Made by a program: the position numbers and the translations under genes. The notes beneath the pieces are model-generated. The model had not been told where the DNA came from and searched no databases. It saw only the letters and a program-made list of their open reading frames with translations. Shown here piece by piece: positions 6,339 to 44,952 of a stretch of DNA of 64,000 nt. The first letter of the stretch is position 1. The number at the start of each line of letters is the position of its first letter. The stretch comes from Eledone cirrhosa (taxonomy: Eukaryota): NCBI GenBank assembly GCA_964016885.1, contig OZ024743.1, positions 265,422,001 through 265,486,000 of the forward strand, read 5' to 3'.

Positions 6339-6439
6339 GATGATGATGATGATGATGATGGTGATGACGATGACGACGATGACAACGATGACGATCTTGG
6401 AAATATAACTTGTTTGATACTGGTGGTGGTGGTGGTGGT
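6339..6439. repeat. (GAT/GAC)n and (GGT)n trinucleotide low-complexity tract
   Basis: Directly visible. It explains the poly-D, poly-H and poly-V ORFs. Confidence 0.85.
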
Positions 6440-6821
6440 ATTGATGCGATACAGTCATGGGGATGGATATAGATATGAACGCTTATACCTCGAAGGAGAA
6501 TTAGGTTGTCTTCTACATAAATTGGAACGAGTGAAACTTTTCTCTGAAACAACAATTAACGAAAACTCTTTAAAGTTTTCATATTTAATGAAGGTCACAA
6601 AAATGGAAGTATTAATATAGCATCAAGTATGTTGTATTTTTTCATGTTCTTTATGACTGCGGAGGATAAAGTAGCCTGTTCATTTTGCAACATATAGCGT
6701 CAAATTAGAATCTTTCATGTTTTTAATGAGTAAATGTAATGAATATAGATGTGTATGTGACGTTTTTATTATTATCATTAAAAGAAACCATTATTATCAT
6801 AATAATAATAATAATAATAAT

Positions 6822-9800
6822 GATTTCATTTATTGGCCACGAGGGACGACATATAAGGGACAATACAAAAGACTAGGACAGTGGGGTTTTACAGAAAAAT
6901 CGAGTAAACAATATGAATCACAATAACAAAGTAACAATAAAATTACAAGAAAACATTCCCCAATAGGGAGGATGACCACCCAGGGTTCGCTCAGATACCC
7001 CACCAATCCTGAAAGACCCGACGCTTCGAGAGCACCCTGGAAGGGCACCCCTCTCCTCCTCAAATTAACCTACCTACAGCCGCATGACCAGAGTAGGCCC
7101 ACTCACGCGGGCCATTCTCGCCACATTCACACACCTTTCAGCAAATGTACTGGGGGCAGCACTTCTCTCTCCACCCTCACCTTCCTTTCCAAGTGAAACT
7201 TGAAAAAAGTTGATGAGGGATTGGCCGAAGAGAAAAGTGTCTGTCTTCAGTCCTTTCAGCCTCGTCCACCATACAACCTCTTTCGCTACTGCCACCAGAC
7301 AGAGGAAAATTGCCTGCCCTTGCTGGCCAAAAGAAGGCGGCGGGTCGATCTTCGCTATGGACTCAGCCGATAGCCGGTTCTGTTCTACACGCGACAACGG
7401 CTGTTCAACATAACTCCACAAGTCAGTAATGTACGGACACTGGATGAGTGCGTGCAGAACAGTTTCGTAGCTCTGTGCGCATCTTGGGCAGGTCCGTCTG
7501 ACAGCACTTCCGTGCCTGTAGAGTTTATCTCGAATTGGCAGTGACCCCCGGTAGCACTGCCAAGCGAGGGATTTTTGGAAATTATCCATCATCCCCGGCT
7601 CGAAAGTCCTCCAGTACAGACTGGTTAGTTCGACTTCGTTGACTCCCAGAACCTCTCCAAGTGCGTCGTCGCGCTTGCCCTCCACTAATCCTCTATAGAA
7701 CTCGAGAGTAGAAGTTCCACTGACCGCATTGCCCGCCTTGTAGCGGGCAGTGAGTGCCTGGCAACATTCCAGATGCCAGTCACCCAGTCTCGGTCTCTTC
7801 TTGACCCAGGATTGCAGCTCAGTCAAAGCAACGAGCTGCAGAAAGGCCCGTCTGACAAACGGTGATCACACCTGTTCACCGTTTAGACAGAATATCTGGA
7901 GATGCCGCAGCCTCAGCGCGTGCCTGCGCATCATTAGCCACGGCATGCCCAACCCTCCGCGTAGAGGGTGCTGGAGGCAAATGGACCGCCTCACCATCGG
8001 AACCTGACCCCTCCACAATAATTTGAAGTGGAGCCGCTCCAGGATGGCGAGGCGCGGACGGGGGCAAGAGACGACGGTCAGACTGTAGTAGATGACGGAC
8101 GCTATGTACGCGTTCCCCACCTCCGCCCGACCTTTCAGTGATAGCTTCATCCCAGCCCATTTCTGGGTGGGACTGGCTACCCTGCCCGTCACCTCGTCCC
8201 AATTCTTATCCACCTGGATGTCTGGCCCGAACCAAACCCCTAGCAACTTTACCGGTCCGTCCGCCCAGCGCCTAACGATGCTGGTGGACGGCATGGACTT
8301 GCCCCTCCAGGTGCCGAGCTGCAAGCCCACCGACTTCTCCGGGTTAAGTTTTGCTGCCGTCAACCTTTCATATTCCTCCAATAAGTTGCCGACCACCTCG
8401 ATTTCTGAGGTGTCCGACATCATCACGGTGATGTCGTCCGCATAAGCCGATACAGCCTTTCCGCGTCCCGGTTCGAGCGGGATGCCCTGCAACAGCTCCA
8501 GCTTCCGCAATAAAGGCTCGAGAGTCAATACGTACAGAAGGGAGAAGACAGGGCACCCGGGAGACCTGAAACGGTTCTGAGAGGTGGCCATTAATTTTGA
8601 CTTTCGAGCAGGTGCCGCTGTGCATTGCAGTGATCCAGCTTCTGAAGACGGGGTCGAAGCCAGCCGCCTTGAGGACAGCCTCCAGGTACCGATGGTCGAC
8701 CCTATCTAATGCTTTCGATTGATCTAAATTGATCAGAGCCCCACCGAAGCTAGGTTTACACCCTACCCTCTCTATGATGTATCGCATTAGGTGGAGGTTG
8801 TCGTGTATGGACCTGGTTGGGATTATGCAACTTTGCGCCTCCCCAACCAAATCCCCGACGACAAGCGCCAACCTCTTCGCTAACACCCTGGCCAGAATCT
8901 TAAACTCTGGTTTGAGCAGAGTTATGGGCCTGAAATTGTCTAATGTGTCCCTCTTGTTCTCGTCTTTCCTTATCAACGTCACTACGCCCCGACTCACAGA
9001 ACTGGGAATACTCCCGTTTTGCTGCCAGTTGCAGTAGAGGGCTTCGAGGAGATTGGAGAACAAGTCTGGCATATTTACGTAAAGCTCGTAGGGCAGACCC
9101 TCCAAACAGGGTGACTTGCGCCTCATGCAGCCGACAAGGGCATCCTGAATCTCGGCTGAAGTAATTGGCCTTTCGCAGCGCCCAGCGTCAGCCGTCGAGA
9201 GTTGCGGCAAGCCATCGAGGTTGGGACTGAAGTCCGCCACCATCTCTGACCCGCCACTTCCCCCGAACAACCGAGCAAATTGTTGGCAAAAGGCCTCACA
9301 CATCCGCTTGGAATCGCTCAGCTCGTGTCCTTCTCGGTCCGTCAAAAACCGAATCGTAGTTTCATTACCAGGCTGTGCATCTTCCACGCGGGCCCATCGA
9401 ACAGCTTTGGTTCCCTCGTTTCCCAGAGCACGCGCCTTAGCTCTGACAATGCAGCCTTCGTGTTTCGCATTGAAGAAATGGTCTACTGCCATTCTCGCCG
9501 CTAGTACGTCAGTTGCAATACCACTACCAATAGCCTCGTCTAACTTATCTACCAACTCCCCCACCTTTCTATTTTTCTCTAACGCTACTTCTTTGCTACA
9601 CTCTATCAACATTACTCTAATCTCTCTTTTGAGAGCCTCCCACCATCTATTGTTGACGACTTCCCCTGTCAACTTTTTCTTACCTGAATTGTTTATCTGG
9701 TCCCTGTAAGCCTTACGTGCCGGAAATGACATGTTTAGCTTCCAGTAACCAGGTCCTAACCTACGCGTCTTATCTAGGACGACCATAGAGATCACAAACT

Positions 9801-10753
9801 TGTGATCTGAATAGGTGACCGTTTCAAAACGTGGACAGCTTACACTATTTCTGTCTATTTTCCTAATGAATATCCTGTCTATATACGGTCTAGATGACCC
9901 TATGTGGTTAGCCCAGGTCCACACTGGCGCATTAGGGAAATCTAGTCGTTACCTGTCAGACAGTTGGAACTGGCTGATCAGGTTATTGAGGCTTTTGCAA
10001 CCCCCGCTCCTATCGGATACTCCCACACTGTCCCAGTGTGCGTCTAAGATGCCGTTCCAGTCCCCCGCTAAGAGTAAAGGGCGGGAACTGCCCAGAAAGG
10101 CTTCCAGGCGTCTAAAGAAGTCCGGCCGTCCTGCTCCAGTAGGAGCATTGCCTTCGGTCATAATATGAATGACCGTCCCATTCTGAAGGCGGATGTGGCC
10201 CGCGATTGTCTTCACATTCTCGGGCCTGATCTGGAGAAGGATCTCCAGGTCAACTCCGGTCCAGTCCTCTCTGGCCGTTCTGGTCACTTCTATCGGGACG
10301 GTATCCGTCCCCTCCACAATCACACATCCCAGAAGCCACCACATGTCAAGTCCTGGTGGGATTCTGGGAATGCGGAGACGGGTCGTTCTTTTTCCCATGT
10401 GGGAGCGGTACATTATGACCTTGCTGGTTTTGCAAGGAGTCATAGCGTGTTTCATAGCGAGTGCTTCTGACTTGAACAACACTGAAATTGTGCCGTACTG
10501 TCTGCCCCTCTCTATGTATTCGGTGTCTTCCCTGATGCACCTCAGCCATGTTATTTTTTTCTCCGTAAATTTTTTAACATGTAAAAACTTTCAAAAATTT
10601 GGGCCAAAAGGCCCAAATATTATACTTTCCCCTTCACAGAGCAAAATCTAAGGGTTTATATCCCTCACACAACCATAAATATTTAACAACAAATAATTTT
10701 AACAGGCAAATAAAGTGACTTACTGGGTGCGAGCATATACATCCAATTAGACC
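6822..10753 (-). mobile_element. Tx1/L1-clade LINE copy 1, internally deleted and frameshifted
   Basis: ORF1 remnant fused to APE motifs (GDWN, WTW, YIDR, YSDH), then RT (RPITLL, LDQSKALDRVDH, YADD) and a C-terminal CPRC..H..C motif. AATAAA lies near the 3' end, with (AAT)n on both sides. Confidence 0.92.
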
Positions 10754-10771
10754 AATAATAATAATAATAAT

Positions 10772-13700
10772 ACTGATTTTTTATTGGCCCCAAGTGCTAA
10801 CATAAAGAAAAACATTACAGCGGCCCAGGATGGTACAGGACGGTACGATGTGGGATTTGTGCGTATAAATATTTTGATTATTTATATAAGAAAATAAAGA
10901 AAAAAAGGACATAGAAACATATGTATATATAAACGATAAAAATGAAAATTGAACAATGAAAAATTCCCCAATAGGGGGGAACCTCCGTGGGTTACTCGTG
11001 GCGAAAACCACACAAAAGACCATGGCCACCCTGACCACCAGGTCAAGAGCCAACTCTCAATGTTTCCATCTTTCAAACTACAGACGTATATTCAGAGTGG
11101 TCCCGTTCACTTGGACCATTCTCGCTACAATCAGCCACGTTTCAACAAACTTGCTAGAAGGCAGCACTTGCCTCTCCACCCTGATTTTCCTCTTCAAGTG
11201 AAACTTGAAAAAGTTAGTTAGATATTCGCCGAAGAGGAAAGTGTCTGTCTTTAACCCTTTCAACATTGTCCACCACACAATCTCTTTCGCCATGGCCACC
11301 AAGCAAATGAAAACCGCCTGCCCTTCCTCCTCGAAGGAAGACGGCGAGACCAAATGCACAATGGACTAATTCGATAATCGGATCAGTCCTACACGCGACA
11401 CCAACTGTTCGATATAGCTCCACAAGTCAGCAATGCTCGGGCACTGAACGAGTGCGTGCAGGATGGTTTCGTCGCTCTGCGCGCATCTCGGACAGGCTCG
11501 GATGACGGTACTTCCGTGACTGTAGAGCTTATCTCGAACCTGCAACGCGCCTCGGTAGCACTGCCAGGCCAGGGATTTTTGGAAGTTATCCATAGGCTCT
11601 GGGCTGAAAGTTCTCCGGAAGAGGGCAAACAGCTGATCTTCTTCGACGCCCAGGATCTCTCCGAGAACTTCGTCGCACTTCCCCTCCAATATTGCTCTAT
11701 AGAACGCCGAGGTGGATGTTCCACCGATACTTGTGCCCAGCTGGCAGAGAGCGGCCTGGAGACATTCCAGTTTCCAAGCGCTAACCTTCGGTCTTTTCCT
11801 GACCCAGGACTGCAGCTCCGTCAAGAAGACGAGCTGTCGGGAAACGTACCTGGCAAATGGCGACCACACCTGCTGACCGTCAAGGAAGCACCAGAGATGA
11901 TGCAGCCTCAGCGCATGTTTGCGCATCATCAGCTATGGCATGCCCAGTCCTCCAACGGGTGTTGACAGCAGATGGATGGATCGTCTGACCATGGGAGCGC
12001 GTCCCTTCCACAGAAAGCGGAAGAGGAAGCACTCAATTTTGGTGAGAGTTGGGCAGGAGCTAGGGACGACGGTGAGGCGGTAGCAGATGACGGACGCGAT
12101 GTACGCATTCGCCACCACCGCCCGGCTTTTCAGGGGCAGCTTCCTCTCGGCCCATTTCTGGGTGAGGGAGGCCACACTGCTCGTCACCTCGCTCCAGTTT
12201 TTCTTCATCTGGAGGTCCGGTCCAAACCAGACCCCGAGCAATTTAACCGGTCCATCCGTCCAACGTCCCACGACGCAGTCGGGCGGCATTGACTTGCTGC
12301 TCCAGGTGCTGAGCTGCAAGCCTACCGACTTTTAATGGTTTATGTTTGATCATGTCACCGCTTCGTATTCTTTGAGAGCGGTGCCGAAATCTGGACGTGT
12401 CTGGTGCTCGGCACCACAACGGTGACGTCATCGCGTAAGCCGACTCGGATTTCCTGCACCCTAGTTCGCGCGGAACGTCCCTCATCGCCCCCCAGTTTGT
12501 GCAGTAACGGCTCGAGATTCATTACGTACAAGAGGGACGAGATGGGATAACTCTGGCGGACCGAGCGCATAATGCTGAACGGCTGCGACAGGTGACCGTT
12601 CACCCTCACCACTGAGCAGATTTCGCTGTACATCGCAGCGATCCAACCCCTAAAAACGGGCTCGAAGCCGGCTGCCTCGAGAACCGCCGACAGGTACCGA
12701 TGGTCGACCCTATCGAAAGCTTTGGATTGATCCAAGTTGATCAGGGCTCCACCCGTCCCAGGTTCCTTAACCACACTCTCTACGATGTGGTGGAGGTTGC
12801 GTGTATGGATCTGTCCGGAATGGCGCATGTCTGCGTCTCTCTCACTAGACCCCCGACGACAAGCGCCAACCTCGTTGCTAACACTTTGGCCAAAATCTTG
12901 AACTCTGCGTTCAGCAGGGTTATGGGCCTGAAGTTATCGATAAGATCGCCCTTGTTCGGGTCTTTCCTCAGCAGCGCCACCGCACCACGGCACACAAACG
13001 TGTGAATGCTTCCGTTCTGCTGCCAGTTGCAATAGACATCTGCCAAGAGGTCACCCAACAAGTCTGGCATAAATGCATAGAGATCGTAGGGCAGACGAAC
13101 CAATCATGGCGATTTATCCCTCGTGCAGTTAGCCATCGCTTCCCGTATTTCACCGGCTGTTATTGGCTTTTCGTAACACTGTGCTGCGGTCGTCGAGAGC
13201 CAAGGCAGTCCGTCGAGGTATGCACTGAAGTCCATACCCTGATGCGGCCCGCCGCTGCTCCCGAACAGTTCAGCAAAGTGCTGCTGAAAAGCCTCACACA
13301 TCCGCTCGGATTCGAGCAACACGCGCCCGTTTTGGTCAGATAAAGACCGAATTGTGATTTGTTGCCACGTAGCGCCTCTGCTACCCGGGCCCATTGGACG
13401 GCTTTTGTCCCCTCGTGTCTCAGAGCACGCGCTCCATCTCTGACAACGCAGCCTTCGTGTTCAGGGTTGAAGAATTGGTCGAGTGCCAATCTCGCCGCAA
13501 GCACGTCGGTTATGATGCCTGTCTTAAACGCCTCTTCTAGCTTTATAAAGTGCTGGACGTTTCAAGAAATGTCTCTTAACGTCTGAAGAAAGCTGGCCGT
13601 CCTGCCCCAGTTGGGGCGTAGACGACTACTAGCCTGAAAGCATTGCCTTCGTTGCCGGTCACGTCCAGCACCACCGACTTACCTTCTGGGTCTAGGAAGA

Positions 13701-16248
13701 AAGCCCGTATGGCGAGATCCAAGCCTCTCAGAAAAAGGATGACCCCCCCCCCCCCCCCCCTCCAATCCTGGACGGCTGGGAAATGCGTATAGATCGTAGC
13801 CGCCGAAGATCGTTGCAAAGGCTCGTGCTTCGGTGATTCTGGCTTCGCTGATGGCCACCACATCTATGTTTAGTGAAACTGCTTCAAAATGACCCCAGGC
13901 CACGTGCATTTATGTTTCCTTTCTGAGTAAGGCCATGTTGGATGAGAAACGGGGCAAGTGAGAAAGGGTCACTTACCTAGATTATGTGGTGAAGGGACAG
14001 TAGAACTGTCCCTTTTGCTGGTCATGGGTGTTTTCAAGAGGATGTCAGTGTATATCCTCTTGGTAACCGACCCTCTGAAGTCTCCAACTGCGTTGGGGAA
14101 TTTTTGTTTTAAAGGTTTGTACTGTTCTATTGAGATTTCGCTGATGCTTCTGTTTGTCGGGAGAGTTCTTGGTGTTGGTGGGGTGTAGTAGTTTTTTTCT
14201 GTGATGTCTGTGTGCTGCTTTATATATTGTATGAGTTCATTTTTGCTATGTTTATGGCTGTGACTTTTTGGGGGGAGAGGGGATTTTGTTGCTGTTTTCT
14301 TCTTATTGCTGTTTGGTGTGTGTGTCTTGTTGTGTTTGCGTTGTTGGTGTTTTTGGTGATGCTTGTTGTGGTGTGGTTGTTGTTGTCAGTGGTGCTTGTG
14401 GTGGTGATGGTGGTGGTGTTGCTGCAAGAATCCTTGCTGCCTTTAGCCCTCTTTGTATGCCTTATCTTTTGGAGTGTGAATCTAAAGGTTTTTTTGTGGG
14501 GGGGGGGGGGTTGTGGCAGACCGTTTGCCACTTCACTCCCGCCTCAAACTCCATGTCGGATTCTGTGGCGTCTGGGAGGGGTATGTGCTCTACGGCTCTT
14601 GGTGGTGGTAGTGGAGCCCACTTCAGCAATTTTGTTGCTGGTGTAGCTACTTCAAATGTAGCTATTGGTGTTCCCGCCACTGATGATGCTGCTTTAGTTG
14701 TCCGTGGCCTTGGTACGGGTGTTACGGGCGTTGCCTTCCTACTCACCGTGGAAGGGGCTTCTTCGTTTGTTGCCTGTCCTGCTCTTGGTAGCAGCGGACC
14801 AGATATTGGAAGGAGAGGAGCCTTCTTCGCCGTCTTCTGCGGGCAAAAGGCCCTGAGGTGACCCTTCGACCCACAGAGATAACATTTTGGCTATCTTCCT
14901 TCTACACTTAAAGGGAGTTGAAGTCCTTCCACGATGTCTATGATATCGGGGATAGCGTCGAGACATTCCTGGTCAGTTTGTATAAGAATTTGCATGCCTA
15001 TACCTGACCAGTTCTCTTTCCCTATTTTTTCTACTTGCAGCATGGTCGTCCTGTTCTCGATTCCAGCAAGGACACACGCGGCCAGCCAAGGTATGGGCAC
15101 ATCGGGTGGGACCTGGGTCACTTTGACCCTCACAATTTTCTGCCCGCAGTAGGAGGGCACCTCACTCTTTACGGTTTCCAAAGAGTGAGACTTTTCTTCC
15201 TGGGGGGTGGCGATAAGTACGTCTACTGAGTCGTACTTTCTGCCTCGGGTGATGTGGGTATTGCGTGCCCAGACGCACCCCAAGGCCGTTGGGATTTGAG
15301 CCTCCATGGCTCTCTCCACACGATGTGAGATTATTCTTATGGTGCGGTATGTCACCATCCGTAGCTGCAGGTCCTTGAAAAAATCGGATGGAGGTTTCAG
15401 GGAGACTCTATTTGCGCTTCATGTCACCATGGCCCTTGCGACTGCCATATCCTCCTCTGTGACTAACACTGTCTCGATATTTCGGGCGACACCTGCAAAA
15501 GAAGTGCTCCCTTTTTCAGCAGCACCACTATTGCTGCCACTACTGATCCTACTGGTATCGGTGTCACTGTTGTTGTTTTCGTTGGTACAGTTGTTGGTGG
15601 TGTTGTTGTTGTTTTCGTTGATACTGTGGCTGTTGTTACTGTTATTGTGGCTGTTTTTATTATTGTTGTTTTTGTTGATACTGTTCCTACTATTATTGTT
15701 GTTGTGGCTGTTGTTATTGTCATTGTTATTGTCGTTCTTGACCTTACCGCTGTTATTTTTTATATTGCCGTTCTCGACTTTACCGCCGTTATTTTCGTTG
15801 TTGCTGTTGTTATTAATGGTGCTGTTGTTGGTGTTGTTGTTGGTGGTGTTATTGTTGGTGTTGTTTGTGTTAGAAATATTTGTTAATTTTAAATCTGTAA
15901 CAATCTTCTTTTCCTTTGTAATATTTTCGTTTATATTTGCCTCCGCTGGAACGCTGTCTTGTTGACATGCTGATAAAGTCTCCCTCTCTCTGTGATGTCT
16001 GACAGCACTCTCTCTCTCTTTCTTGTGTTATCCATGTTGAAATTTTTCAACAAAATATGTTTACACAAATACGAATACGACACCCCGTAAAAGGGGTGCC
16101 GTATTATTTACGAGTGAGTCCCTGTATTAGGTGGGTCACTTCTTCTACACTTTTATCAAATTTAAAACTTGAATAAAAAGTTTAGAACGGTTGAAAACGA
16201 GGTAAAACGTTGAAAAAAACTGGAGGCGACAAGAAGCGTGGCTTCACC
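10772..16248 (-). mobile_element. Tx1/L1-clade LINE copy 2, with both ends, ORF1 and a decayed ORF2
   Basis: ORF1 has a Thr/Asn-rich N-terminus and a CYLCGSKGHLRAFC knuckle. ORF2 runs from ~13937 with APE (SEAR, VYAP; deletion at ~13575), RT ([19 protein letters not shown]) and CPRC..H..C. Flanks are (AAT)6 and (AAC)4(AAT)8. Confidence 0.92.
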
Positions 16249-16284
16249 AACAACAACAACAATAATAATAATAATAATAATAAT

Positions 16285-17229
16285 ATACGTGACTGATAGT
16301 AAGGAGCCAATGCTCAGAATTGTACTGAAGGAGAGGACAATAGACCAGGGGATGCCCAAGGAGGAAATAACAACAAGGAGAAAGAGCAGCCTTCATGAAA
16401 AATCCCTTCATAGTACCTTCTTTGAGAAAACTGAATTCAGAGATCCACAGACATGGAACTGGTTGAAGAGAGGAGACCTTAAAAAGGCTACAGAAGGAAT
16501 GCTAATGGCTGCGCAAGAGCAGGCCCTCAAAACGAAGTGGTTGAAACACCATATTTACAAGGAGGAGGCTAGCCCACTGTGCAGGATCTGTGGAGAGAGA
16601 GAGAGGAGACTGTGGCTCACATTGTATCCGAGTGTAAACACCTAGCCCAGACTCACTATAAGGGCTGGAGACATGATGTGATGGGCATGGTTATCCACTG
16701 GCACCTATGCAAAGTAAACAATTTACCACATTCTGAGAAGTGGTATGAGCATAAGCCAGAGGCGGTGATAGAAAACGATCAGGTGAAGGTGCTGTGGGAT
16801 TTTAGGATACAGACGGACAAGAAACTTGAACACAATAGACCTGACTTGGTGGTTTTGGACAAGGAAACAAGATCGTGCCTGATTGTGGATGTGGCCTGCC
16901 CATTCGACACGAGAGTGCAAGAGAAGGAGAGGGAGAAAATTAACCGATACCAGGACTTAAAGTGGGAGGTAAAAAGGATTTGGAACTGCCATGAAGTCAA
17001 AGTCGTCCCGATTGTCATAGGCGCACTATGTACTATCTCAAAAAGTTTCCAGGGATGGTTAAAGAAAATTAGCCCCGCCACGCTTTTTGGAACGCTTCAA
17101 AAGGCATGCTTGCTGGGAACAGCAAGAACCCTCCGATACGTCCTGAATATCTGAGGCTGCAGGTAGTGGCTTGATATTAATTTCAACAAACTTTCCAGTT
17201 AAACTAACATCAATGAGTGAGACTCAAAG
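16285..17229 (+). mobile_element. R4/Dong-clade LINE family A, 5'-truncated (D1)
   Basis: CRIC..HIVSEC zinc knuckle, RHD motif and restriction-like endonuclease (RPD..IVDVAC..EREKINRYQDL). Stop at 17154, short 3' UTR, (AAC)n(AAT)n tail and one frameshift in an (AG)n run. Confidence 0.92.
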
Positions 17230-17238
17230 AACAACAAC

Positions 17239-17273
<35 letters not shown>

Positions 17274-17858
17274 TAATAAGGAACGCGCTGAATAACATCA
17301 TGGACGCCCATAACGAAGTTCCCCACACTATTTGAAATAAATCGAACACCATCGACAAAGCAATAATAAAAACACTACGAAAACAAAGTGGAAACATAAT
17401 TGACGAATACCAAAGAAGCCTACAAAAAATAAATTTTGTACACGGATCGTCCTTATAACATAATTTTCTACATTAAAATATCGGACCACATGAAATAGAA
17501 TATCAGCCGCGCCACTACTCAGAATTGTAAATCAAAACTAATAGAAAAACGATATATGTACGTAACAAACTCTATTGATTATATTACACATGCATGTATT
17601 ATGAACACTACGAAAAATGTACACAAAACAAACATGCAGATATACAGACGTTCGCTATTTGAACAACTATTTGAAGAAGAGAAACAGTCGTAGATCGGAC
17701 GACACGTTGCTTATTTCAGGAGTAAGTTTTGTTTAATTTGTTATTCCCTAACACGAAAATTCGACACATTATTTCACCACTTATCTCTAAAAATAATCTG
17801 ACACTGGTTGTGAGAACTGCATAAATATTTTTATATATTTACCCATTACAATCGCTGT

Positions 17859-18118
17859 TTGACTTTGCCTTTCATCCTTACGGAGTCGATAAAATAAAGT
17901 ACGAGTAATGCACTGGGTTATTGCTGGCCTTGTGCCTAAAGTAGAAACAATTATTTGAAGTGCATTGGCAGTATCGGTAGAGGGTCGGACGCCATGCTTC
18001 CTAGCATAGTTACGTCCCTTTACGATCTGAGTTCAAATCCCGCCGAGGTTGACTTTGCCTTTCATCCTTACGGGGTCGATAAAATAAAGTACCAGTAATA
18101 CACTGGTTAATTGCTGGC
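17859..18118 (+). mobile_element. Tandem SINE units (tRNA-related, octopus-type)
   Basis: ~190-bp repeat unit with B-box-like gagttcaaatcc and the core gactttgcctttcatccttacggggtcgataaaataaagtac. It recurs at 34110-34406 and in degenerate form at 37540-37690. Confidence 0.75.

Positions 18119-20010: not shown

Positions 20011-20011
<1 letters not shown>
18119..20011 (-). mobile_element. R4/Dong-clade LINE, decayed 5' half (distinct from family A)
   Basis: N-terminal KWTREEYKEVIHAYY (Myb-like) and NKLANVRR, then KSPG.D, T.ILPK, NYRPITCL, EQK.C..G..GCKDQL and WIDYKKAFDS..HSWI (early RT domains). The 5' end abuts (ATT)n. Confidence 0.85.
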
Positions 20012-20089
<78 letters not shown>

Positions 20090-20090
<1 letters not shown>

Positions 20091-20370
20091 TTTGAGTCGC
20101 AGTCATTGATGTTAGTTAACTGGAAAGTTTGTTGAAATGAATATCAAGCCACAACCTGCAGCCTCAGATATTCAGGACATATCGGAGGGTTCGTGCTGTT
20201 CCCAGCAAGCATGCCCTTTGAAGCGTTCCAAAAAGCGTGGCGGAGCCAATTTTCTTTATCCATCCCTAGAAACGTTTTGAGATAGTACCTAGTGCGCCTA
20301 TGACAATCGGGACCACTTTGATTTCATGGCAGTTCCAAATCCTTTTTACCTCCCACGTTAAGTCCTGGTA

Positions 20371-20372
<2 letters not shown>
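20090..20372 (-). mobile_element. R4/Dong family A short 3' fragment (D2)
   Basis: High identity to the 3' end and UTR of D1 and D3, with (ATT)n on both sides. Confidence 0.9.
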
Positions 20373-20411
<39 letters not shown>

Positions 20412-22189
20412 GTATTTGAGTCTCAGTCATTGATGTTAGTTAACTGGAAAGTTTGTTGAAATGAATATCAAGCCACTACCTGCAGCCTCAGATATTCAGG
20501 ACGTATCGGAGGGTTCTTCCTGTTCCCAGCAAGCATGCCTTTTGAAGCGTTCCAAAAAGCGTGGTGGGGCCAATTTTCTTTAACCATCCCTGGAAACTTT
20601 TTGAGATAGTCCCTAGTGCGCCTATGACAATCGGGATCACTTTGACATCATGGCAGTTCCAAATCCTTTTTACCTCCCACTTTAGGTCCTGGTATCGGTT
20701 AATTTTCTCCCTCGCCTTCTCTTGCACTCTCGTGTTGAATGGGCAGGCCACATCCACAATCAGGCACGATCTTTTTTCTTTGTCCACAACCACCAGATCA
20801 GGTCTATTGTGTTCAAGTTTCTTGTCCGTCTGTATCCTAAAATCCCACAGCACCTTCACCTGATCGTTTTCTATCACCGCCTCTGGCTTATGCTCATACC
20901 ACTTCTCAGAATATGGTAAATTGTTTACTTTGCATAGGTGCCAGTGGATCTCCCTGCCCATCACATCATGTCTCTAGCCCTTATAGTGAGTCTGGGCTAG
21001 GTGTTTACACTCGGATACAATGTGAGCCACAGTCTCCTCTCTCTCTCCACAGATCCTGCACAGTGGGCTAGCCTCCTCCTTGTAAATATGGTGTTTCAAC
21101 CACTTCGTTTTGAGGGCCTTCTGCTGCGCAGCCATTAACATTCCTTCTGTAGCCTTTTTAAGGTCTCCTCTTTTCAACCAGTTCCCTGTCTGTGGATCTC
21201 TAAATTCAGTTTTCACAAAGAAGGTACTATGAAGGGATTTTTCTTGAAGGATGCTCTTTCTCCTTAATGTTATTTCCTCCTTGGGCATCCCCTGGCCTAT
21301 TGTCCCCTCCTTCAGTACAGTTCTGAGCATTGGCTCCTTACTATCAGTCACGTATTTGTGTATGTTGTTTTTCTCCATCTGAACACAGTCCTCTATGCTG
21401 ATAAGACCTCTTCCACCTTCAGATCTCCTTAAGTAGAGTCTATCGACATCACTCCTCTTGTGGAACATGTTGTAGATAGTCAATAGAATCCTAGTCTTCC
21501 TATCCATTTCTTTTTGTTCAGCAACATTCCATCTCAGAATTCCCGCACTGTACCTAATAATAGACACAGCTCGGGAATTTACTGCACTTATGGCATTCCT
21601 ACTGTTCAGATGTGACTTTAATACGCTCCTTACTCTCCGAATGTATTCAGTTCTTATCAATTCCTTCATTTTTTTGTTCTTGATGTCATCAGCCTCCAGA
21701 ACACCCAAATACTTGTATCCATCTTCAGAGTCAATTTCCTTTATCATCTCACCTGTTGGTACCTGGATTCCGTTACTTCTGCTCAACTTACCCCTCTTCA
21801 TCACAATGACTCCACACTTACTAATACCAAATTGCATACATATATCATTGCTGAAAATACGGACAGTGTCAACAAGCACATCCAACTCCTTCTCACTCTT
21901 CCCGAAGAGCTTAAGATCGTCCATTAAGAGGAGGTGATTGATGGTAAGCCCTCCCTTTCCCAACCTGTATCCTGCTCTCACTTTTCGCAGTACAGTGATC
22001 AGGGGCATCAGGGTAAGGACAAACAACAGAGGGGACAGACTATCACCCTGGAAGATACCTCTCTTGATCTTCACGCTTCCCAAGTATTCTCCAGTTGATG
22101 TTAACTCTGTTTCCCAGGACTTCATACTTTTGCCCAACAACTGTCTGATGTTATCTGCCACCTTGAAGATCTCCAGGCTTTTGGTGATC

Positions 22190-22190
<1 letters not shown>
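20412..22190 (-). mobile_element. R4/Dong family A, 5'-truncated (D3)
   Basis: RT motifs GIFQGDSLSPLLF, NHLLLMDDLKL and YKYLGV, then GGRGL, a CCHC knuckle and REL. A single TAG replaces the W of KGWRHD at 20974. (ATT)n lies on both sides. Confidence 0.93.
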
Positions 22191-22247
<57 letters not shown>

Positions 22248-25200
22248 GGCGTCTTGCGGAGGAAATGGTATTATCGTGAGCTCCGCAAAGGTTTGTTGTT
22301 TTCAGATGTTTCAAATTGCCATTTATGGAAAAATTTTATTGTTAACTGTATATACGTGCACATACATTGTTATCTGAAAAGGACACCCAAAAAGATTGGG
22401 TCCTTGAGCCCAAAATTTAAACTTTTATAATTATCAAACAACATTTTTTCTTGGAAAAATCATGGGCTACCCAGCTCACTCCTTCCTCACAAACTAACAC
22501 CTCACACCGACACCACCATTGTAAATATTACTACGTTTGCTAACACTAAAAATATAAGCAGTAGCAATATTTTAAATTTGTCTCGGGCAGACATTCATTT
22601 CCCGCCATTACCAATGACTGCAGGTGTTAAAGCCGCTACCCCCACCACTACCACAGCGACAACAGAAACAAAAGAAAAAATAAATTAACTCGTGATATCG
22701 AAATGAATTCAACCAAAATGAACTCTTCCACATCGAACACCACTGACGCCACCACCACCACAACTGAAACTAAAATTAATAATAAAAAAAATAACGATAA
22801 CCACAACAGCAACAATGACATTAAGAAAACCACACTGAGTTTTGCCAGAGTAGCAAAACAGTGCGAAGCATTTCAGGTAACTCAGGAGGAATTAGAAGAA
22901 GCCCCCAAAATGGTAAAGAAAGATAGGTACAGGGTCAGCCTACCCCCCAACTAATAAAATGGGGCATGGGCGCCCCTGCACCGTGTCTTATCGAACAATT
23001 AATATAAAATCGCGCCGAGTGGAACGGGCATCCGAGGCCCAAATCCAAAAAGCTTTGGGACATGTGTGGGCAAAAAAACCACACATGAGACGTGGGCAGA
23101 ATTATGGAACCGTGGACGTGTTCTTTGAAACACCACAGGAGGCTAGAGAACACTCCATGGCCCCATTAAGAAGTGACGACTTCACACTCGTCCCAAGCTA
23201 TTGTGGCCAGAGACTCGTAAATATCAGGGTGACCCACGTTCCACCGGCCATCGAAATTCCCTGGCTAATATCTGCCGTCCTTGCCGGCATCGAAGCCAAC
23301 ACCAACATAATCGAAATAGCGAAAGAAAAGCAGCAGAACTGGTCCGGATCAGGGATGGAGCTCCTGATCCAAGCGGACCAAAAAAGCATTGAGGAGATCC
23401 CAGAGGTAATAGACGTCACTGACGGCAGCCATCTCACCGTAATCGTCGAGGGCAGAAGGCCAAGGTGTGTCGTTTGTGGTGAAAGAACCCACCTATGGGG
23501 TTTCTGCCCTCCGGCTAAAAGGTTGAGGCCACCTCTCCTACTCATCCCAGTGACTCAACCATCAACACCACCAGCAGCAGAGATGGCAGCAACAACAGAA
23601 GCAACTGTAACAGCAACAACCCCAGCACCAGTAGCAATACCAACACCACCACCACCCAACGCTTCAGAACTAGCACCAGCGCCTACACCATCCACCACTC
23701 CACAACCAAAACCAACGCCTGTGGAGGATTTTACAATCCCCGGCCTATCACAACTGGAGACAGATTGTGACGACGAGGAGTGGGGAACGGCATCAGGAAA
23801 AAAGAAATAAAGAAACCAAAATAGAAAAAAAATATCTTCCCTCCCCCTCCAAAAACAAAATACAGAGGGAAACAAATAAACTATCAAACAAAAAATTGAG
23901 GACAGATATGCCACCATCCACACCAGCATCACCGACTCCATCACCACAAACACCAACACCATCAACATCATTAACCCCAACACCACCATCACCAACACCA
24001 CAAAAGTCACCAAAAAGCGAAACAGAAACAAACCCACAACAAACACAAACAAAACAAAACAACCAAAACGATGCACACTACACAGCATTAAATTTGAACA
24101 ACAACCAATTATTACACTACATCCAACACAACACCAGCTTCACAGAAAAAGACTACACAGCAAACCAAAAGTTCACACCACCTCCACACATACAAATCAC
24201 TCGCATCACACAGAAAACGTACACGACACTAAAACAAAAATTCCCCAAAGACATCGGAGTCTTCCGACAAGCACTCTCCAGGAGGATTTATAAGGACATC
24301 CTTCCGGAGTAGGCCACAAGCAGTGAAAAGGATGGAGAAACCATCTTTCCTCTAGGAGAAGTAAGGTAAGTGGTCTTTCCCATCTTTTCCACTCCATTTC
24401 AACATGACCTCACTCAGAATAGGCAGCACAAATGCACGTGGCTTGGGGTCGTCTTGGAAGCAGGGCCACCTGCTCAACGACCTCAGGTCACTAAACATAG
24501 ATGTAGTGGCCATCAGCGAGACCAGAATCTCCGAAGCACGGGCCTTCGCACCGATCTTCAGCGGCTACGATGTGTACGCATCTCCCAGCCGTCCGGGATC
24601 GGGGTGTGGAGTTGCTGTGCTTTTTCGGAGAGGTTTGGATCTCGCCATACGGGCCATCTTCCTGGACTCAGAAGGTAAGTTGGTGGTGCTGGACGTGACC
24701 AGCGGAGACGGGCAAGCTTTCAGGCTAGTGGCCGTCTATGCCCCGACAGGAGCAGGGCGGCCTGATTTCTTCCGGTGTCTGGAGACCTTTCTTGGAACGT
24801 CCCGCTCTTTAGTGTTAGTGGGCGACTGGAACGGGATATTAGATGCACGCTGGGACTGTGTGGGAGTAAAGGGTAGGGAAGGAGGGTGCAAGAGCCTCAC
24901 CAACCTTCTCAGGCATTTTGAACTCTCTGACAGGTACCGATTGGATTTCCCGAATGTGCCAATGTGGACTTGGACAAATTGCATAGGGTCATCCAGATCA
25001 TATCTAGATAGAGTATTTTGTAGGGAAATAGATAGGTCTAGCATAGGCTGTCCACAATTCAAGATAGTCAGCTACACGGACCACAACTTCGTGACCTGTG
25101 TGCTTGACTTTGATAGGCTTCATAGACGAGGACCAGGCTACTGGAAGCTAAACGCGTCTTTACCAGTGCGCAAGGCCTACAGAGATCGGATTAGCGAACT

Positions 25201-27780
25201 AGTTAAGCGGGCGTTGAAGGAGGCCATCGTTAACAACAAGTGGTGGTTTGCTCTGAAAAGAGCAATTAGAATAGAGTCCATTAGGTTTAGTAAGGCTTTA
25301 GCAATAAAGAAAAATAGAGCAGAGGGAGAATTAGTTAGACAATTAGGCGAGGCGCTTAGCAAAGGCATCGCGACCGACGTACTTGCGGCGAAATTGGCCC
25401 TTGCCCAATTCTTCAATGCAAAGCACGAAGGCTGCGTTGTCAGAGCTAGGGTGCGTGCTCGCAGACGGGAGGCAATGACTGGCTGCACAAGGGGTAAATT
25501 GCCTGGTTTGGATTGTCTGCCCTATGAACTTTACGTACAGATGCCAGACTTGGTCGGAGGCCTCTTGGCGGACGTCTATTGCAACTGGCAACAGAACGGG
25601 AGAATTCCCAGCTCTGTGAGCCAGGAGATGTGGCGCTGCTGAGAAAGGATCCAAACAAGAGGGATAACATAGATAATTTCAGGCCCATAACTCTGCTAAA
25701 CACAGAGTTCAAGATTTTGCCCAAGGTGCTAGCAAAGAGGTTGGCGCTTGTCGTTGGTGGTCTGGTGGGAGAGGCGCAGACGTGCGCCATTCCCGACAGA
25801 TCCATCCACGACAACCTCCACCTCTTGCGATACATTGTAGAGAGGGTAGCTAGGTAACCTGACACGGGTGGGTCCTTGATCAATTTAGATCAGTCGAAAG
25901 CTTTCGAAAGGTTCGACCATCGTTACCTAGAGGCAGTCCTGAGGGCGACTGGATTTGAGCCCGTCTTCAGAGGCTGGATCGCTGCCATGCACAGCGACAT
26001 CTGCTCTGTGGTGAGAGTGAACGGTCACCTTTCCGAACCGTTCAACATCATGCGCTCGGTCCGCCAAGGATGTCCCCTCTCCTCCCTCTTGTACGTATTG
26101 AGTGTCGAGCCATTACTGCACAAACTGAAGACGTTGAGGGGGGTCCCGCGCGAACTAGGATGTGGAAGATCCGTGTCAGCATATGCGGAACATGTCAACC
26201 TAGTGGTGGCGAACCCCAAACACATCGAGGCGACCGGCACTACACTAAGAGTATACGAAGCGGTGACAGGAGAAATGATCAACCAATAAAAGTAAGTGGG
26301 CCTGCAGCTCGGCACCTGGAGAGGCAGGTCCATGCCGTCCAACTACGTCGTCCGGCGCTGGACGGACGGACCGGTTAAATTGGTTCGGTCCGAACCTCCG
26401 AACGGACAAAAACTGGGACGAGGTGACGAGCAGGGTGGCTTCTCTCACCCAGAAATGGGCCGAGAGGAAGCTATCCCTGAAACGTCGAGCGGAGTTGGCT
26501 AACGCGTACATCGCGTCCGTCATCTACTACAGCCTGGCCGTCGTACCTTATCCTAAGCCCCGCCTAACTGCGGTGGAGCGTTTGCTCTTTCGCTTTTTTA
26601 TGGAAGGGACGCGCTCCGATGGTCAGACGGTCCATCTGCTGTCAACACCCGCTACGTGGAGGACTGGGCATGCCGTGGCTGATGATGCGCAAACACGCGC
26701 TCAGGCTACGACATCTCCACCTCTTCCTCGACGGGGATCAGGTGTGGTCGCACTTTGCTAGACGCGTCTTTTCCCAGCTAATTTCCTTGACTGAGCTGCA
26801 GTCCTGGGTCAAGCGAAGACCGAGAGGGAGCGCTTGGAGACTGGAATGTCTTCAGGCGCTCACAGACCTCGACTAATCGGGCAATGTGTTCGGTGGAAAC
26901 TCCACCTCGGCGTTCTATAGAGGATTAGTGGAGGAGAAGAGCGACGACGTACTTGTGGAAACTCTAGGCGTCAACGAAAATCAACTACGCAATCTCTTCG
27001 GAAGAACTTTCCGGCCGGGGCCTATGAAAAATTTCCAGAAATCCCTAGCCTGGCAGTGCTACTGAGAAGCCTTGCTCGGGATAAACTCGACAGGCATGGA
27101 GGTGCCGTCAGCCGGGCATGTCCGAGATGCGCGCAGGGCGACGACATCTTCCTGCACGCACTCGTCCAGTGTCCGAACATTTCTGACTTGTGGGTTTATG
27201 TCGAACACCTGCTGTCGCGTGTAGGACGGATCTAGCTATCAGCTGAGTCCATCGTGAGGATTGCCCCGCCCTCTTCATTTAGCGGGGAAGGGCAGGCAGT
27301 TTTTATCTGTCTGGTGGCCATGGCGAAACAGATAGTATGGTGGACACGTCTGAAAGGGCTGAAGATGAGCACTTACCTCTTCAGTGATGCCCTGATTAAC
27401 TTTTTTAAATTTCATTTGAAAAGGAAAATCAGGGTAGAGAGGAAAGTGCTCTCTTCCCAGCATTTTGTTGAAAGATGGGTGAGAGAAGCAAGAATGACCC
27501 GAGTGGCCTACTCTTAGTATGTGTCTGTAAATTAAAGGTGGAAAACTGGGAGAGAGCACTTGCCCTGGTGGTCAGGGTCACTGTGGTCTTTTAATGGGCT
27601 TTCTCCACAAATGTCCCTCGGAAGTCTCCCCATATTGGTGAATTTTTCATTGTTATTTTTGTGTTACATCCTCTGTTTTTGTTTTTTACACGCAGAAATA
27701 CCCATTTGTGCCGTCCTGTATTGTCCTGTACTGTCCTTAATGTCTACTTTATGTAAATCCTTGTGGTTAATAAAGAAAAC
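22248..27780 (+). mobile_element. Tx1/L1-clade LINE copy 3, with both ends
   Basis: Starts GG directly after (ATT)19. ORF1 pieces 22703-24312 carry a CVVCGERTHLWGFC knuckle. ORF2 runs from ATG 24404 with APE (NARGL, SETR, VYAP, GDWN, SYLDR, YTDH), RT (RPITLLN, QGCPLS) and CPRC..H..C. There is an internal deletion at ~25465, and AATAAA precedes the (ATT)n tail. Confidence 0.93.
24404..27517 (+). pseudogene. Tx1-like ORF2 (APE endonuclease + reverse transcriptase), disrupted
   Basis: Consecutive ORF fragments show the expected motif order, broken by frameshifts and stops. Confidence 0.88.
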
Positions 27781-27806
27781 ATTATTATTATTATTATTAT
27801 TATTAT

Positions 27807-28701
27807 AGTTGCATTTATCTTGCTTTATGTTCATACGAGTTATCACCAAGTCACAAACAGTGACTTCAAGAGACAACAAGGTCCGCCATGTTCAAGAAAG
27901 AACATACATACACACACATGCATCTTTAGGTGTTTAGACTTGTGATGTACTTATATTGACAGAATCTTCCTTAGTATATGGGCTGTTCCCATTAGTACTA
28001 TCTTTTGTATTTCTCCTATACGCGGGCTTCCTGGGATTTGCGATAAGTAATCATTAGACCCCTTAGGTATCATTTCTAGAGCGCCTACAACCACTGGTAT
28101 TGTTTTAGTTCTCAATTTCCACATTTTTCCAATTTCTATCTCCAAGTCCTTATACTTGCTCAATATTTCAAATGCTTTTATAGACACATTCTTGTCTTTG
28201 GAACGGACATATCAATTAGCAGGCATACCCTCTTTTTAAAGTCCTTCAGTATTATATCAGGTCTATTTGCATCTATTTTTCGGTCTTTTTGGATGCTAAA
28301 ATTCCACAAGATTGAGATGTGATCTTTTTCAAGTATGGGAGGTTGTTGATGTTCCCACCAATTCTTATGATGCGGTGGGTCAAAATGCTTACACATTATC
28401 CAATGTATGTATTGTGCAGCTCTGTCATGCCTGTTTAGGTATTCGGTTGGAGCTATAGGACTGCACATTGAAATTATATGATCAATGGTCTCTAGTTGTT
28501 TTTTACATACAGGGCATAATGGGCTGCATCCATTTTTTATTATGTTGGCTTGGTAATTTTTTGTTGGCAGACACTGATCTTGTGCTGATATAATCAGTCT
28601 TTCAGTCTCCGATTTCAGTCCAGAGGATGCCAACCACTGTTGGGTTAAAATGTTGTCAACATCAGGATTGTTAGCTCTTTCTGGGTATTTTCCATACAGA
28701 G
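27807..28701 (-). mobile_element. R4/Dong-clade LINE family B, 3' fragment
   Basis: AQDQ.L.T, CPVC..HIISMC, RHD, NRPD..LLIDMSVP, KYKDL and ILRKILSI* (stop 27951). The 3' UTR ends in an (AAT)n tail shared tail-to-tail with Tx1 copy 3. Confidence 0.9.
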
Positions 28702-28951
28702 GCTGTTCCCAGCAAGCATGCCTTTTAAAGTTTTTCAAAAAGCGTGGCGGGACCAATTTTCTTTAACCATCCCTGGAAACTCTTTGAGATAGTACCTAGT
28801 GCGCCTATGACAATCGGGACCACTTTGACTTCATGGCAGTTCCAAATCCTTTTTACCTCCCACTTTAAGTCCTGGTATCGGTTAATTTTCTCCCTCTCCT
28901 TCTCTTGCACTCTCGTGTCGAATGGGCAGGCCTCATCCACAATCAGGCACG
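28702..28951 (-). mobile_element. R4/Dong family A fragment (D4), 3' end lost
   Basis: REL segment ACPFDTRVQEKEREKINRYQDL, fused directly to family B at ~28701, with (ATT)n at its 5' side. Confidence 0.88.
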
Positions 28952-28958
28952 TATTATT

Positions 28959-29018
<60 letters not shown>

Positions 29019-29027
29019 GTTGTTATT

Positions 29028-30294
29028 CCTTGAATCTCAGTCATTGATGTTGGTTAAATGGAAAGTCCGTTGGATTGAATATCAAGCCACTACCTGCAGC
29101 CTCAGATATTCAGGACGTATCGGAGGGTTCTTGCTGTTCCAAGCAAGCATGCCTTTTGAAGCGTTCCAAAAAGCGTGAAGGGGCCGATTTTCTTTAGCCA
29201 TCCCTGGAAACTTTTGGAGATAGTCCCCAGTGCGCCTATGACAATCGGGATCACTTTGACTTCATGGCAGTTCCAAATCCTTTTCACCTCCCACTTTAGG
29301 TCCTGGTATCGGTTAATTTTCTCCCTCTCCTTCTCTTGCACTCTCGTGTCGAACGGGCAGGCCACATCCACAATCAGACACGATCTTTTTTCTTTGTCCA
29401 CAACCACCAGGTCAGGTCTATTGTGTTCCAGTTTTTTGTCCGTCTGTATCCTAAAATCCCACAGCACCTTCACCTGATTGTTCTCCATCACCGCCTCTGG
29501 CCTATGCTCATACCATTTCTCAGAATGTGGTAAATTGTTTACTTTGCACAGGTGCCAGTGGATCACCCTGCCCATCACATCGTGTCTCCAGCCCTTATAG
29601 TGGGTCTGGGCTAGGTGTTTACACTCGGACACAATGTGAGCCACAGTCTCCTCTCTCTCTCCACAGATCCTGCACAGTGGGCTAGCCTCCTCCTTGTAAA
29701 TATGGTGCTTCAACCACTTCGTTTTGAGGGCCTGCTCCTGCGCAGCCATTAGCATTCCTTCTGTAGCCTTTTTGAGGTCTCCTCTTCTCAACCAGTTCCA
29801 TGTCTGTGGATCTCTAAATTCAGTTTTCTCAAAGAAGGTACTATGAAGGGATTTTCCCTTAAGGCTGCTCTTCCTCCTTGATGTTATTTCCTCCTTGGAC
29901 ATCCCCTGGCCTACTGTCCCCTCCTTCAGTACAGTTCTGAGCATTGGCTCCTTACTATAGGTCACGTATTTGTATAGGTTGCTGTATAGGTTGTTTTTCT
30001 CCATCTGAACACAGTCCTCTATGCTGATAAGACCTCTTCCACCCTCAGATCTCCTTAAGTAGAGTCTATCGACATCACTCCTCTTGTGGAACATGTTGTA
30101 GATAGTCAATAGCTTCCTAGTCTTCCTATCCATTTCTTTTTGTTCAGCAACATTCCATCTCAGAATTCCCGCACTGTACCTAATAATAGACACAGCTCGG
30201 GAATTTACTGCACTTATGGCATTTCTGCTGTTCAGATGTGACTTCAATACGCTCCTTACTCTCCGAATGTATTCAGTTCTTAACAATTCCTTCA

Positions 30295-30298
<4 letters not shown>
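29028..30298 (-). mobile_element. R4/Dong family A, 5'-truncated (D5) with open frame
   Basis: Uninterrupted ORF portion through the CCHC knuckle and REL to YVLNI* (29102), with (ATT)n on both sides. Confidence 0.93.
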
Positions 30299-30340
<42 letters not shown>

Positions 30341-33973: not shown

Positions 33974-34109
33974 TATAATATAGATATAAACACATATATA
34001 TAGTATAACAAAGTTCTTTCGTTGCATATCTGCAGCATCATCAGTGGTACTATTATGTTCCTCCTGTTGCATTGTATGTTTACTCCATTATCTATGTACA
34101 GCAAAGAGT

Positions 34110-44692: not shown

Positions 44693-44952
44693 GGTTTGAG
44701 GTTCACCACTGTATAGAGCTGGTCTATTCCGTATGGTCAATCGTAATGCAATAATATAGAGAGTACTCAACGTAAAGCAGTTCAACCGTCTTTGTTTTTG
44801 TAGTTGGTGGTGCTATTACGGAGTTAAATATTATAATGAAATGACAGGAGGCTGGATTTGTGTAAATCCTTGAAAGGTTTATTATACTATGATCATTTCA
44901 ATGACCGGGTTCCGTATGAATCCGGTGATATGTATATATATGTATATATATG

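What the first reader, a model, noticed from the sequence alone, without database searches (positions are those of the whole stretch)
6801..30340. Two unrelated endonuclease systems share one repeat in strictly opposite polarity
Seen: wherever the top strand is AAT, Dong is + and Tx1 is -. Wherever it is ATT, Dong is - and Tx1 is +. This holds for all ten pieces and gives head-to-head (16248/16285, 22190/22248) and tail-to-tail (27780/27807) pairs joined only by the repeat. Known: Dong (R4 clade, REL nuclease) targets (TAA)n. Inference: REL and APE nick complementary strands of the same target and each insertion leaves new repeat, so a ~23-kb self-feeding landing-pad array has grown.
Basis: partly seen in the sequence, partly recalled or inferred. 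Interest (0 to 1): 0.72.

Follow-up and report, generated by a model that had tools for sequence, protein, structure and literature searches.

The report
Two retrotransposons share AAT, facing opposite
Across this animal genome (likely an octopus), two unrelated kinds of jumping gene sit in the same AAT/ATT simple repeat facing opposite ways and pile up into mixed stacks of 10 to over 100 kb, likely because their cutting enzymes nick opposite DNA strands and each landing duplicates the repeat.

Summary
Real, genome-wide, and already noted by this scan on other DNA (four times in this genome, once in another). All ten pieces obey the rule; an eleventh (17283-17858) does too. On the forward strand 4038 of 5204 Tx1 3' ends are followed by (ATT)3 against 9 by (AAT)3; 4592 of 5049 Dong ends by (AAT)3 against 13 by (ATT)3. 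On 43.7 Mb of C1, 57 of 80 Dong ends lie within 20 kb of a Tx1 end (5-10 expected), 53 opposite; an ATT-tailed CR1-like control does not cluster (3 of 51). A 116-kb one-polarity array exists elsewhere. Marked target duplications of 11-30 bp show how an insertion leaves repeat on both sides. Corrections: the ten pieces are one bit per family, not ten; the 23 kb are two pads of opposite polarity fused at a repeat-free joint (18118/18120); no Dong-Tx1 pairing beyond the shared target (p=0.74); the nicks are inferred. Dong on (TAA)n, Tx1 on other microsatellites, and opposite-facing TRAS/SART are known; an (ATT)n-seeking Tx1 was not found in ten searches. New variant of a known kind.

The parts
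6801..6821 (.). (AAT)7, left end of the AAT-polarity block
6822..10753 (-). Tx1-like LINE, subfamily A; internally deleted (APE N-part and much of ORF1), broken
10754..10771 (.). (AAT)6 between two head-to-tail Tx1 copies
10772..16251 (-). Tx1-like LINE, subfamily B; both ends present, about 0.5-kb deletion in APE, stops and frameshifts
16252..16284 (.). (AAC)3(AAT)8 head-to-head joint
16285..17230 (+). DongA (R4-type, REL), 5'-truncated
17231..17282 (.). AAC/AAT tract (13 units, imperfect)
17283..17858 (+).
   Evidence: lies upstream of and on the same strand as DongC in 11 of 11 fetched loci
17859..18118 (+). two tandem SINE copies in an internal ATT site of the DongC 5' region; second lacks its tail
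18120..20011 (-). DongC body, 5'-truncated and 3' half missing; repeat-free joint to the SINE marks the polarity flip
20012..20089 (.). (ATT)26 with one interruption
20090..20372 (-). DongA 3' fragment
20373..20411 (.). (ATT)13
20412..22190 (-). DongA, 5'-truncated (RT C-part, CCHC, REL)
22191..22247 (.). (ATT)19 head-to-head joint
22248..27780 (+). Tx1-like LINE, subfamily C; both ends present, 265-bp deletion, stops and frameshifts; no poly(A)
27781..27806 (.). (ATT)8 tail-to-tail joint
27807..28701 (-). DongB 3' part
28702..28951 (-). DongA internal piece fused to DongB without repeat (template switch or deletion)
28952..29027 (.). (ATT)25 imperfect
29028..30299 (-). DongA, 5'-truncated, young (98% to an intact copy, no stop)
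30300..30340 (.). (ATT)13, right end of the ATT-polarity block

Best explanation
R4/Dong-type (REL) and Tx1-type (APE) LINE families sit in the same (AAT)n/(ATT)n repeat in fixed opposite directions, likely because Dong nicks and primes on the ATT strand and Tx1 on the AAT strand, and each insertion likely duplicates 4-10 repeat units so that stacks keep attracting further copies of either kind. Shown: repeat at both ends, fixed polarity, clustering, independent origin of neighbours, a few marked duplications. Inferred: nicked strand; preference for long tracts; rich-get-richer growth. The window holds two such stacks of opposite polarity, likely fused by a deletion between two inverted DongC copies. 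An abundant SINE uses the Tx1 polarity and likely the Tx1 enzymes.
For: Polarity: Tx1C/D forward ends 4038 of 5204 then (ATT)3, 9 of 5204 then (AAT)3; DongA 4592 and 13 of 5049. Target, not only tail: 2474 Tx1C 5' ends directly follow (ATT)3; 5' flanks in own polarity for 26 of 28 full-length Tx1 and 62 of 84 truncated Dong pieces, 0 in the other polarity. Clustering on C1 1-43.7 Mb: 57 of 80 DongA ends within 20 kb of a Tx1 end (nulls 4.8 and 9.7), 53 opposite; without the 21 direct tail-to-tail pairs 32 of 36 (p=2e-6); beyond 50 kb 11 of 21; 27 of 30 mixed clusters unipolar. Control: CR1-like ATT tails 3 of 51 within 10 kb against 47 of 80 (p=2e-10). 116-kb array with 33 Dong pieces all +, 24 Tx1 pieces all -, 27 AAT runs, 0 ATT runs; neighbours no more alike than distant copies. 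Duplications: DongA 30 bp including 18 nt of a Tx1 end (L124), DongA 24 bp (L223), Tx1 12 bp plus three new ATT units (L355), Tx1 11 bp (L087). 7 of 12 runs of 8 or more units in 600 kb of evenly spaced samples touch a LINE. Intact ORFs of both kinds exist side by side.
Against: No nick was measured. Of 155 copies with both ends, 79 matched only by pure repeat, 65 showed no duplication and 11 were marked, of which I accept 4 or 5. 27 of 40 truncated Tx1 pieces had no repeat at the 5' side (partly deletions and incomplete references). 6 of 43 multi-member clusters on C1 are bipolar, as is this window. Tx1 in non-ATT targets and the SINE in short targets mostly add no new units. Tolerance of insertions in gene-poor DNA could add to the clustering and was not separated.
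Confidence: 0.8

Rival explanations
1. The repeats are only 3' tails carried by each RNA; the elements insert elsewhere and cluster because of selection or chromatin.
For: DongA subfamilies carry heritable degenerate starts of the tail; a CR1-like family here does carry an ATT tail, median 4 units in 30 copies.
Against: Repeat in own polarity at 5' ends; a tail cannot orient neighbours, yet 53 of 57 are opposite; the tailed CR1 control does not cluster; Tx1 in CTT or ACT tracts brings at most one ATT.
Confidence: 0.05
2. Same targeting, but stacks form simply because long pre-existing AAT tracts in insertion-tolerant regions are hit repeatedly; insertion adds nothing that matters.
For: Equal use of tracts of 8 or more units (20 per Mb) would give about 17% adjacency against 26% seen (my arithmetic); no empty allele was seen.
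Against: Most long tracts are themselves element flanks (7 of 12 LINE, 2 SINE, 3 free); 27 separate tracts in one array cannot come from one seed without duplication; marked duplications exist.
Confidence: 0.12
3. Arrays grew by tandem or inverted duplication of DNA (or assembly error), which copies the polarity.
For: One sampled Dong array shows a repeated 3-kb unit (L158); the window has a flip and a duplicated joint.
Against: Window copies belong to six families or subfamilies with different truncation points; within-array identity equals genome-wide identity (0.942 vs 0.930; 0.923 vs 0.923).
Confidence: 0.03
4. The two systems are coupled: each prefers the other's ends.
For: Many tail-to-tail pairs (21 of 80); L124 shows Dong inserted at a Tx1 end.
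Against: Next LINE after a Tx1 end: 9 Dong, 6 Tx1; after a DongA end: 11 Dong, 10 Tx1; p=0.74, small sample.
Confidence: 0.08

Closest known systems
Dong (Bombyx mori) and Dong-like R4-clade elements (PMC7998251 passages; PMC3774820 passages)
   Same: Single ORF with RT, CCHC and REL motifs; (TAA)n target in the element's sense, stated as usual for insects, molluscs and cnidarians; TAA repeats upstream of B. mori Dong.
   Different: Three families, more than 10,000 DongA ends, mixed into arrays with an APE element; no ribozyme match found at the DongA 5' end (inconclusive).
Kibi (TC)n, Koshi (TTC)n, crocodilian (TTCC)n/(TTTC)n Tx1 families (PMC4494074 passages and section 15)
   Same: Tx1-type APE-RT-zinc-finger ORF2 with microsatellite specificity.
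   Different: Target (ATT)n, not named in the passages read (Fig. 3 labels and supplements not visible); invertebrate host; target shared with an REL element; kinship to Kibi/Koshi not tested.
TRAS and SART in (TTAGG)n of B. mori (PMC7265360 passages)
   Same: Two families enter one repeat in opposite directions by nicking opposite strands.
   Different: TRAS and SART are similar APE elements (both R1 clade, recalled) at telomeres; here the two use unrelated nuclease types at interstitial microsatellites throughout the genome.
SINEU / Tx1-Mar of crocodilians (PMC4494074 passages)
   Same: A SINE that shares target preference with a Tx1 family, with tandem insertions around a duplication.
   Different: Target is a microsatellite; the SINE here also shares about 20 terminal nt with Tx1B.

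Membership tests
R4 clade / Dong | Single ORF with RT and no APE domain | tested here: met
   Intact 1141-aa ORF in L133; RVT_1 5e-23, no Exo_endo_phos; best solved matches are R2 proteins.
R4 clade / Dong | C-terminal CCHC knuckle, RHD and PD..D-x-K restriction-like nuclease | tested here: met
   Motifs at residues 952, 981, 1037; motif definitions recalled.
R4 clade / Dong | No N-terminal zinc finger (unlike R2) | tested here: met
   No C2H2 pattern in the first 450 aa; feature from PMC7998251.
R4 clade / Dong | Diverged Myb/SANT-like N-terminal domain | tested here: inconclusive
   Pfam gave no Myb hit; no profile-profile test run.
R4 clade / Dong | (TAA)n target in sense | tested here: met
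   DongB 18 of 18 and DongC 6 of 6 ends.
R4 clade / Dong | HDV-like ribozyme at the 5' end | tested here: inconclusive
   No ribozyme family in Rfam scan of 751 nt.
R4 clade / Dong | RT tree position with named R4/Dong | not tested
   No named R4/Dong among the 120 homologues listed.
Tx1 clade | ORF1 plus ORF2 with APE, RT and CCHC finger | tested here: met
   Intact 1152-aa frame in L132: Exo_endo_phos 1e-13, RVT_1 5e-29, zf-RVT 1e-7; APE catalytic motifs present; long upstream frames.
Tx1 clade | L1-group affinity, nearest named relative Tx1 | tested here: met
   Best solved match human L1 ORF2p 4e-51; only named homologue of 6 is a 'Transposon TX1 149 kDa protein', 32%.
Tx1 clade | RT tree position inside Tx1 rather than L1; kinship to Kibi/Koshi | not tested
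   No reference sequences at hand.
Tx1 clade | Target specificity for a multicopy sequence (more than 20% of flanks, criterion of PMC4494074) | tested here: met
   78% of forward 3' ends; 26 of 28 full-length 5' ends.
TRAS/SART-like pair | Opposite orientation in one repeat | tested here: met
TRAS/SART-like pair | Telomeric (TTAGG)n target, both APE | tested here: not met
   Interstitial AAT; one partner is REL. Works like, is not a member.
TRAS/SART-like pair | Opposite-strand nicking shown in vitro | not testable with these tools
   Needs purified nucleases.

The most novel reading that the evidence does not exclude
A lineage-specific (ATT)n-seeking Tx1 group, its SINE passenger and three Dong families form a genome-wide, self-reinforcing insertion niche: every landing duplicates, and sometimes expands, the repeat, so that tens of thousands of copies collect in polarised arrays up to more than 100 kb, which would account for many of the transposon hotspots and long AAT microsatellites of octopus genomes and name Tx1 as the driver of their dominant SINE.
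Probability: 0.45. Interest if true: 0.68.

Novelty: new variant of a known kind. Interest (0 to 1): 0.52.

Why it matters
It gives a concrete, testable cause for clumped LINE insertion in a 3-Gb genome. A 2026 octopus repeat annotation counts many young Dong-R4 and L1-Tx1 copies and 288 hotspots but offers no targeting mechanism in the two of three parts read (PMC13282606). It adds a probable new target to the Tx1 clade, shows REL and APE nucleases converging on opposite strands of one trinucleotide repeat, and points to a LINE partner for a very common SINE. Intact copies of both enzymes are available for nicking assays.

Tried and rejected
Empty alleles: contigs of four runs laid on 6000-18200 break at the repeats; no informative joint. 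No RNA holder listed. Distant Tx1/L1-like loci from metagenomes (best segments mostly 21-33% identity): 0 of 80 carry four or more AAT/ATT units; many contigs end inside the element, so this only says the target is not general. Protein atlas gave no answer. Rfam found no ribozyme; ARAGORN found no tRNA in the window, so the SINE's tRNA origin is recalled, not shown. Simple inversion as cause of the flip: rejected, the missing DongC 3' half is not in window 1-36000 or the eight flanking 10-kb stretches. Reverse-strand counts of gapped patterns were dropped because they count one place several times. The 21 pairs within 200 bp were set aside for the orientation test because geometry forces them to be opposite. 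Loci L201-L221 were picked as exceptions and left out of the flank count.
Full report
Observation. The window is C4:265,422,001-265,486,000 of a 3.0-Gb animal genome. That it is an octopus is inferred from size, repeat content and a recalled SINE resemblance; R4-Dong is reported almost only in cephalopods among molluscs (PMC10294476, passages). The AAT and ATT tracts, strands and the three named joints are as described. The pieces belong to three Tx1 subfamilies and three R4-type families. All window copies are truncated or broken; intact frames of Tx1C ORF2 (1152 aa; APE, RT, CCHC) and DongA (1141 aa; RT, CCHC, REL motifs, no APE) lie side by side in an array on C1.

Corrections to the anatomy. 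17283-17858 is the 5' end of DongC on +, after AAT; it lies upstream of DongC on the same strand in 11 of 11 loci fetched. It is interrupted by two SINEs, and the second is joined without repeat to a second, inverted DongC copy at 18118/18120. Both DongC copies lack their 3' parts. The polarity flips exactly there, so the 23 kb are two pads, most simply fused by a deletion (inferred). At 28701/28702 a DongA piece is fused to DongB without repeat.

Is it more than chance? Within the window, no: polarity is one bit per family. Genome-wide, yes. Exact 3'-end motifs give 10,188 Tx1C/D and 10,057 DongA ends. Forward strand only: Tx1 4038 of 5204 followed by (ATT)3, 9 by (AAT)3; DongA 4592 of 5049 by (AAT)3, 13 by (ATT)3. 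Of the 16 distinct Tx1 exceptions, 14 are a short AAT run that turns into ATT; most of the 26 distinct Dong exceptions have AAT units first.

Target or tail? 2474 Tx1C 5' ends follow (ATT)3 directly. In fetched loci the 5' flank is in own polarity for 26 of 28 full-length Tx1, 13 of 40 truncated Tx1 and 62 of 84 truncated Dong pieces, and never in the other polarity; 3 of 27 'full' Dong pieces scored, because the DongB and DongC references lacked their 5' ends. Tx1 has no poly(A); in CTT, ACT or unique targets it brings at most one ATT. DongA subfamilies carry two to four degenerate AAT-like units as part of their end.

Co-clustering. For all listed ends on C1 1-43.7 Mb (100 Tx1, 80 DongA): 21 DongA ends within 200 bp of a Tx1 end (nulls 0.09, 0.17), 57 within 20 kb (nulls 4.8, 9.7), 53 of them opposite; 32 of 36 without the forced pairs (p=2e-6); 11 of 21 beyond 50 kb. 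37 of 43 multi-member clusters and 27 of 30 mixed clusters are unipolar. Tx1-Tx1: 44 of 99 neighbours within 20 kb (4.4 expected), 39 same strand. Control: a CR1-like LINE with an ATT tail (4906 ends, median 4 units in 30) has 3 of 51 ends within 10 kb of Tx1 against 47 of 80 for DongA. In 60 evenly spaced 10-kb samples Tx1, Dong and the SINE cover at least 2.6, 1.5 and 2.0%; 17 of 117 runs of three or more units and 7 of 12 runs of eight or more touch a LINE. C1:37,102,391-37,218,741 is a 116-kb array, 85% covered, with 33 Dong alignment pieces all + and 24 Tx1 pieces all -, 27 AAT runs and no ATT run of five or more units; its members are no more alike than distant copies. There is no pairing: after a Tx1 end 9 Dong, 6 Tx1, 3 SINE, 12 none of 30; after a DongA end 11 Dong, 10 Tx1, 2 SINE, 7 none of 30 (p=0.74).

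Does insertion leave new repeat? Of 155 copies with both ends, 79 match by pure repeat only, 65 show none, 11 are marked; I accept L124 (DongA, 30 bp including 18 nt of a Tx1 3' end, so Dong came second), L223 (24 bp with an interruption), L355 (Tx1 in the Tx1B 3' UTR, 12 bp plus three new ATT units), L087 (11 bp) and perhaps L178. In L356 the two copies of an apparent 23-bp duplication carry different expansions (CTT to 22 units at the 3' side, ATT to 11 at the 5' side), a single hint of insertion-coupled growth. So one target becomes two; net synthesis beyond that is rare or unproven, and no empty allele was obtained.

The SINE. 59 of 73 SINE ends are followed by ATT, 2 by AAT, 12 by neither. 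It enters single ATTAT sites inside DongC repeatedly, with duplications of about 6-18 bp and mostly no added units. Its last 30 nt align with the Tx1B end (score 27; 7e-4 of 5438 windows; shuffle p=2e-4) and not with Dong ends (8-15). Tx1 as its partner is likely, not shown; RTE ends were not compared.

Mechanism. In target-primed reverse transcription the nicked strand primes cDNA (established knowledge), so Dong in AAT sense implies a nick on the ATT strand and Tx1 in ATT sense a nick on the AAT strand. The second cut 11-30 nt downstream duplicates the target. Long tracts are mostly element flanks, so later copies of either family land there and inherit the pad's polarity. The nick sites and the preference for long tracts are inferred.

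What is known. Dong on (TAA)n in insects, molluscs and cnidarians (PMC7998251, passages; PMC3774820, passages). Tx1 families on (TC)n, (TTC)n, (TTCC)n, (TTTC)n (PMC4494074, passages and section 15; figure labels and supplements not seen). TRAS and SART enter (TTAGG)n in opposite directions on opposite strands (PMC7265360, passages). Octopus annotations list Dong-R4 and L1-Tx1 as abundant or young without targets (PMC13282606, parts 1-2 of 3; PMC8967140, passages). PMC4640811 and PMC5786205 (passages) added nothing on this target. Ten searches found no (ATT)n-specific Tx1 and no Dong/Tx1 co-array; Repbase and subscription journals were not searchable. This scan reported the same system five times before, which is not independent evidence.

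Verdict. A real and strong genome-wide pattern; this window is an ordinary, rearranged example of it. New variant of a known kind; interest 0.52.

Noticed in passing
window 34107-34471 and 17859-18183: The SINE-SINE-DongC joint occurs twice in the genome, both in this window, 95% alike; the second copy stops exactly where the first runs into seven T, which would fit SINE read-through and re-insertion, but no tail or duplication is visible.
   Followed up: partly
window 28702-28951: DongA piece fused in sense to DongB at a few shared bases: template switch between families or deletion.
   Followed up: partly
window 44928-49950: Two direct copies (97.7%) of a CR1-like RT fragment separated by long (TA)n tracts.
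   Followed up: no
window 49694-56020: Long ORFs at 51726-54224 that look Penelope-like (recalled; no Pfam hit) inside near-identical direct (99.7%) and inverted repeats; a decayed relative at 61675-63811 on -.
   Followed up: no
L356 (C28): Full-length Tx1C whose two target copies carry different repeat expansions (CTT x22, ATT x11).
   Followed up: partly
L158 (C1:384.00 Mb); L188 (C3:255.00 Mb): A Dong array with a tandemly repeated 3-kb unit; a 556-bp tandem repeat with one AAT run per unit.
   Followed up: no
L205; L121; L124: Tx1 copies joined in inverted orientation, one tail-to-tail over an AAT tract, two with internal inversions.
   Followed up: no
L003, L013, L017, L110, L239: Dong and Tx1 joined head-to-head without repeat, both lacking 5' parts; likely deletions inside arrays.
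   Followed up: no
L429, 3' end: A distant Tx1-like element in a metagenome contig that ends in what looks like a 5S rRNA gene end (recalled), as Mutsu-type elements do.
   Followed up: no
runs X4, X5 on window 6814-16174: Contigs of two other organisms cover the Tx1 pieces deeply but DongA far less, so the Tx1 families are shared more widely or are less diverged (depth is no copy number).
   Followed up: no
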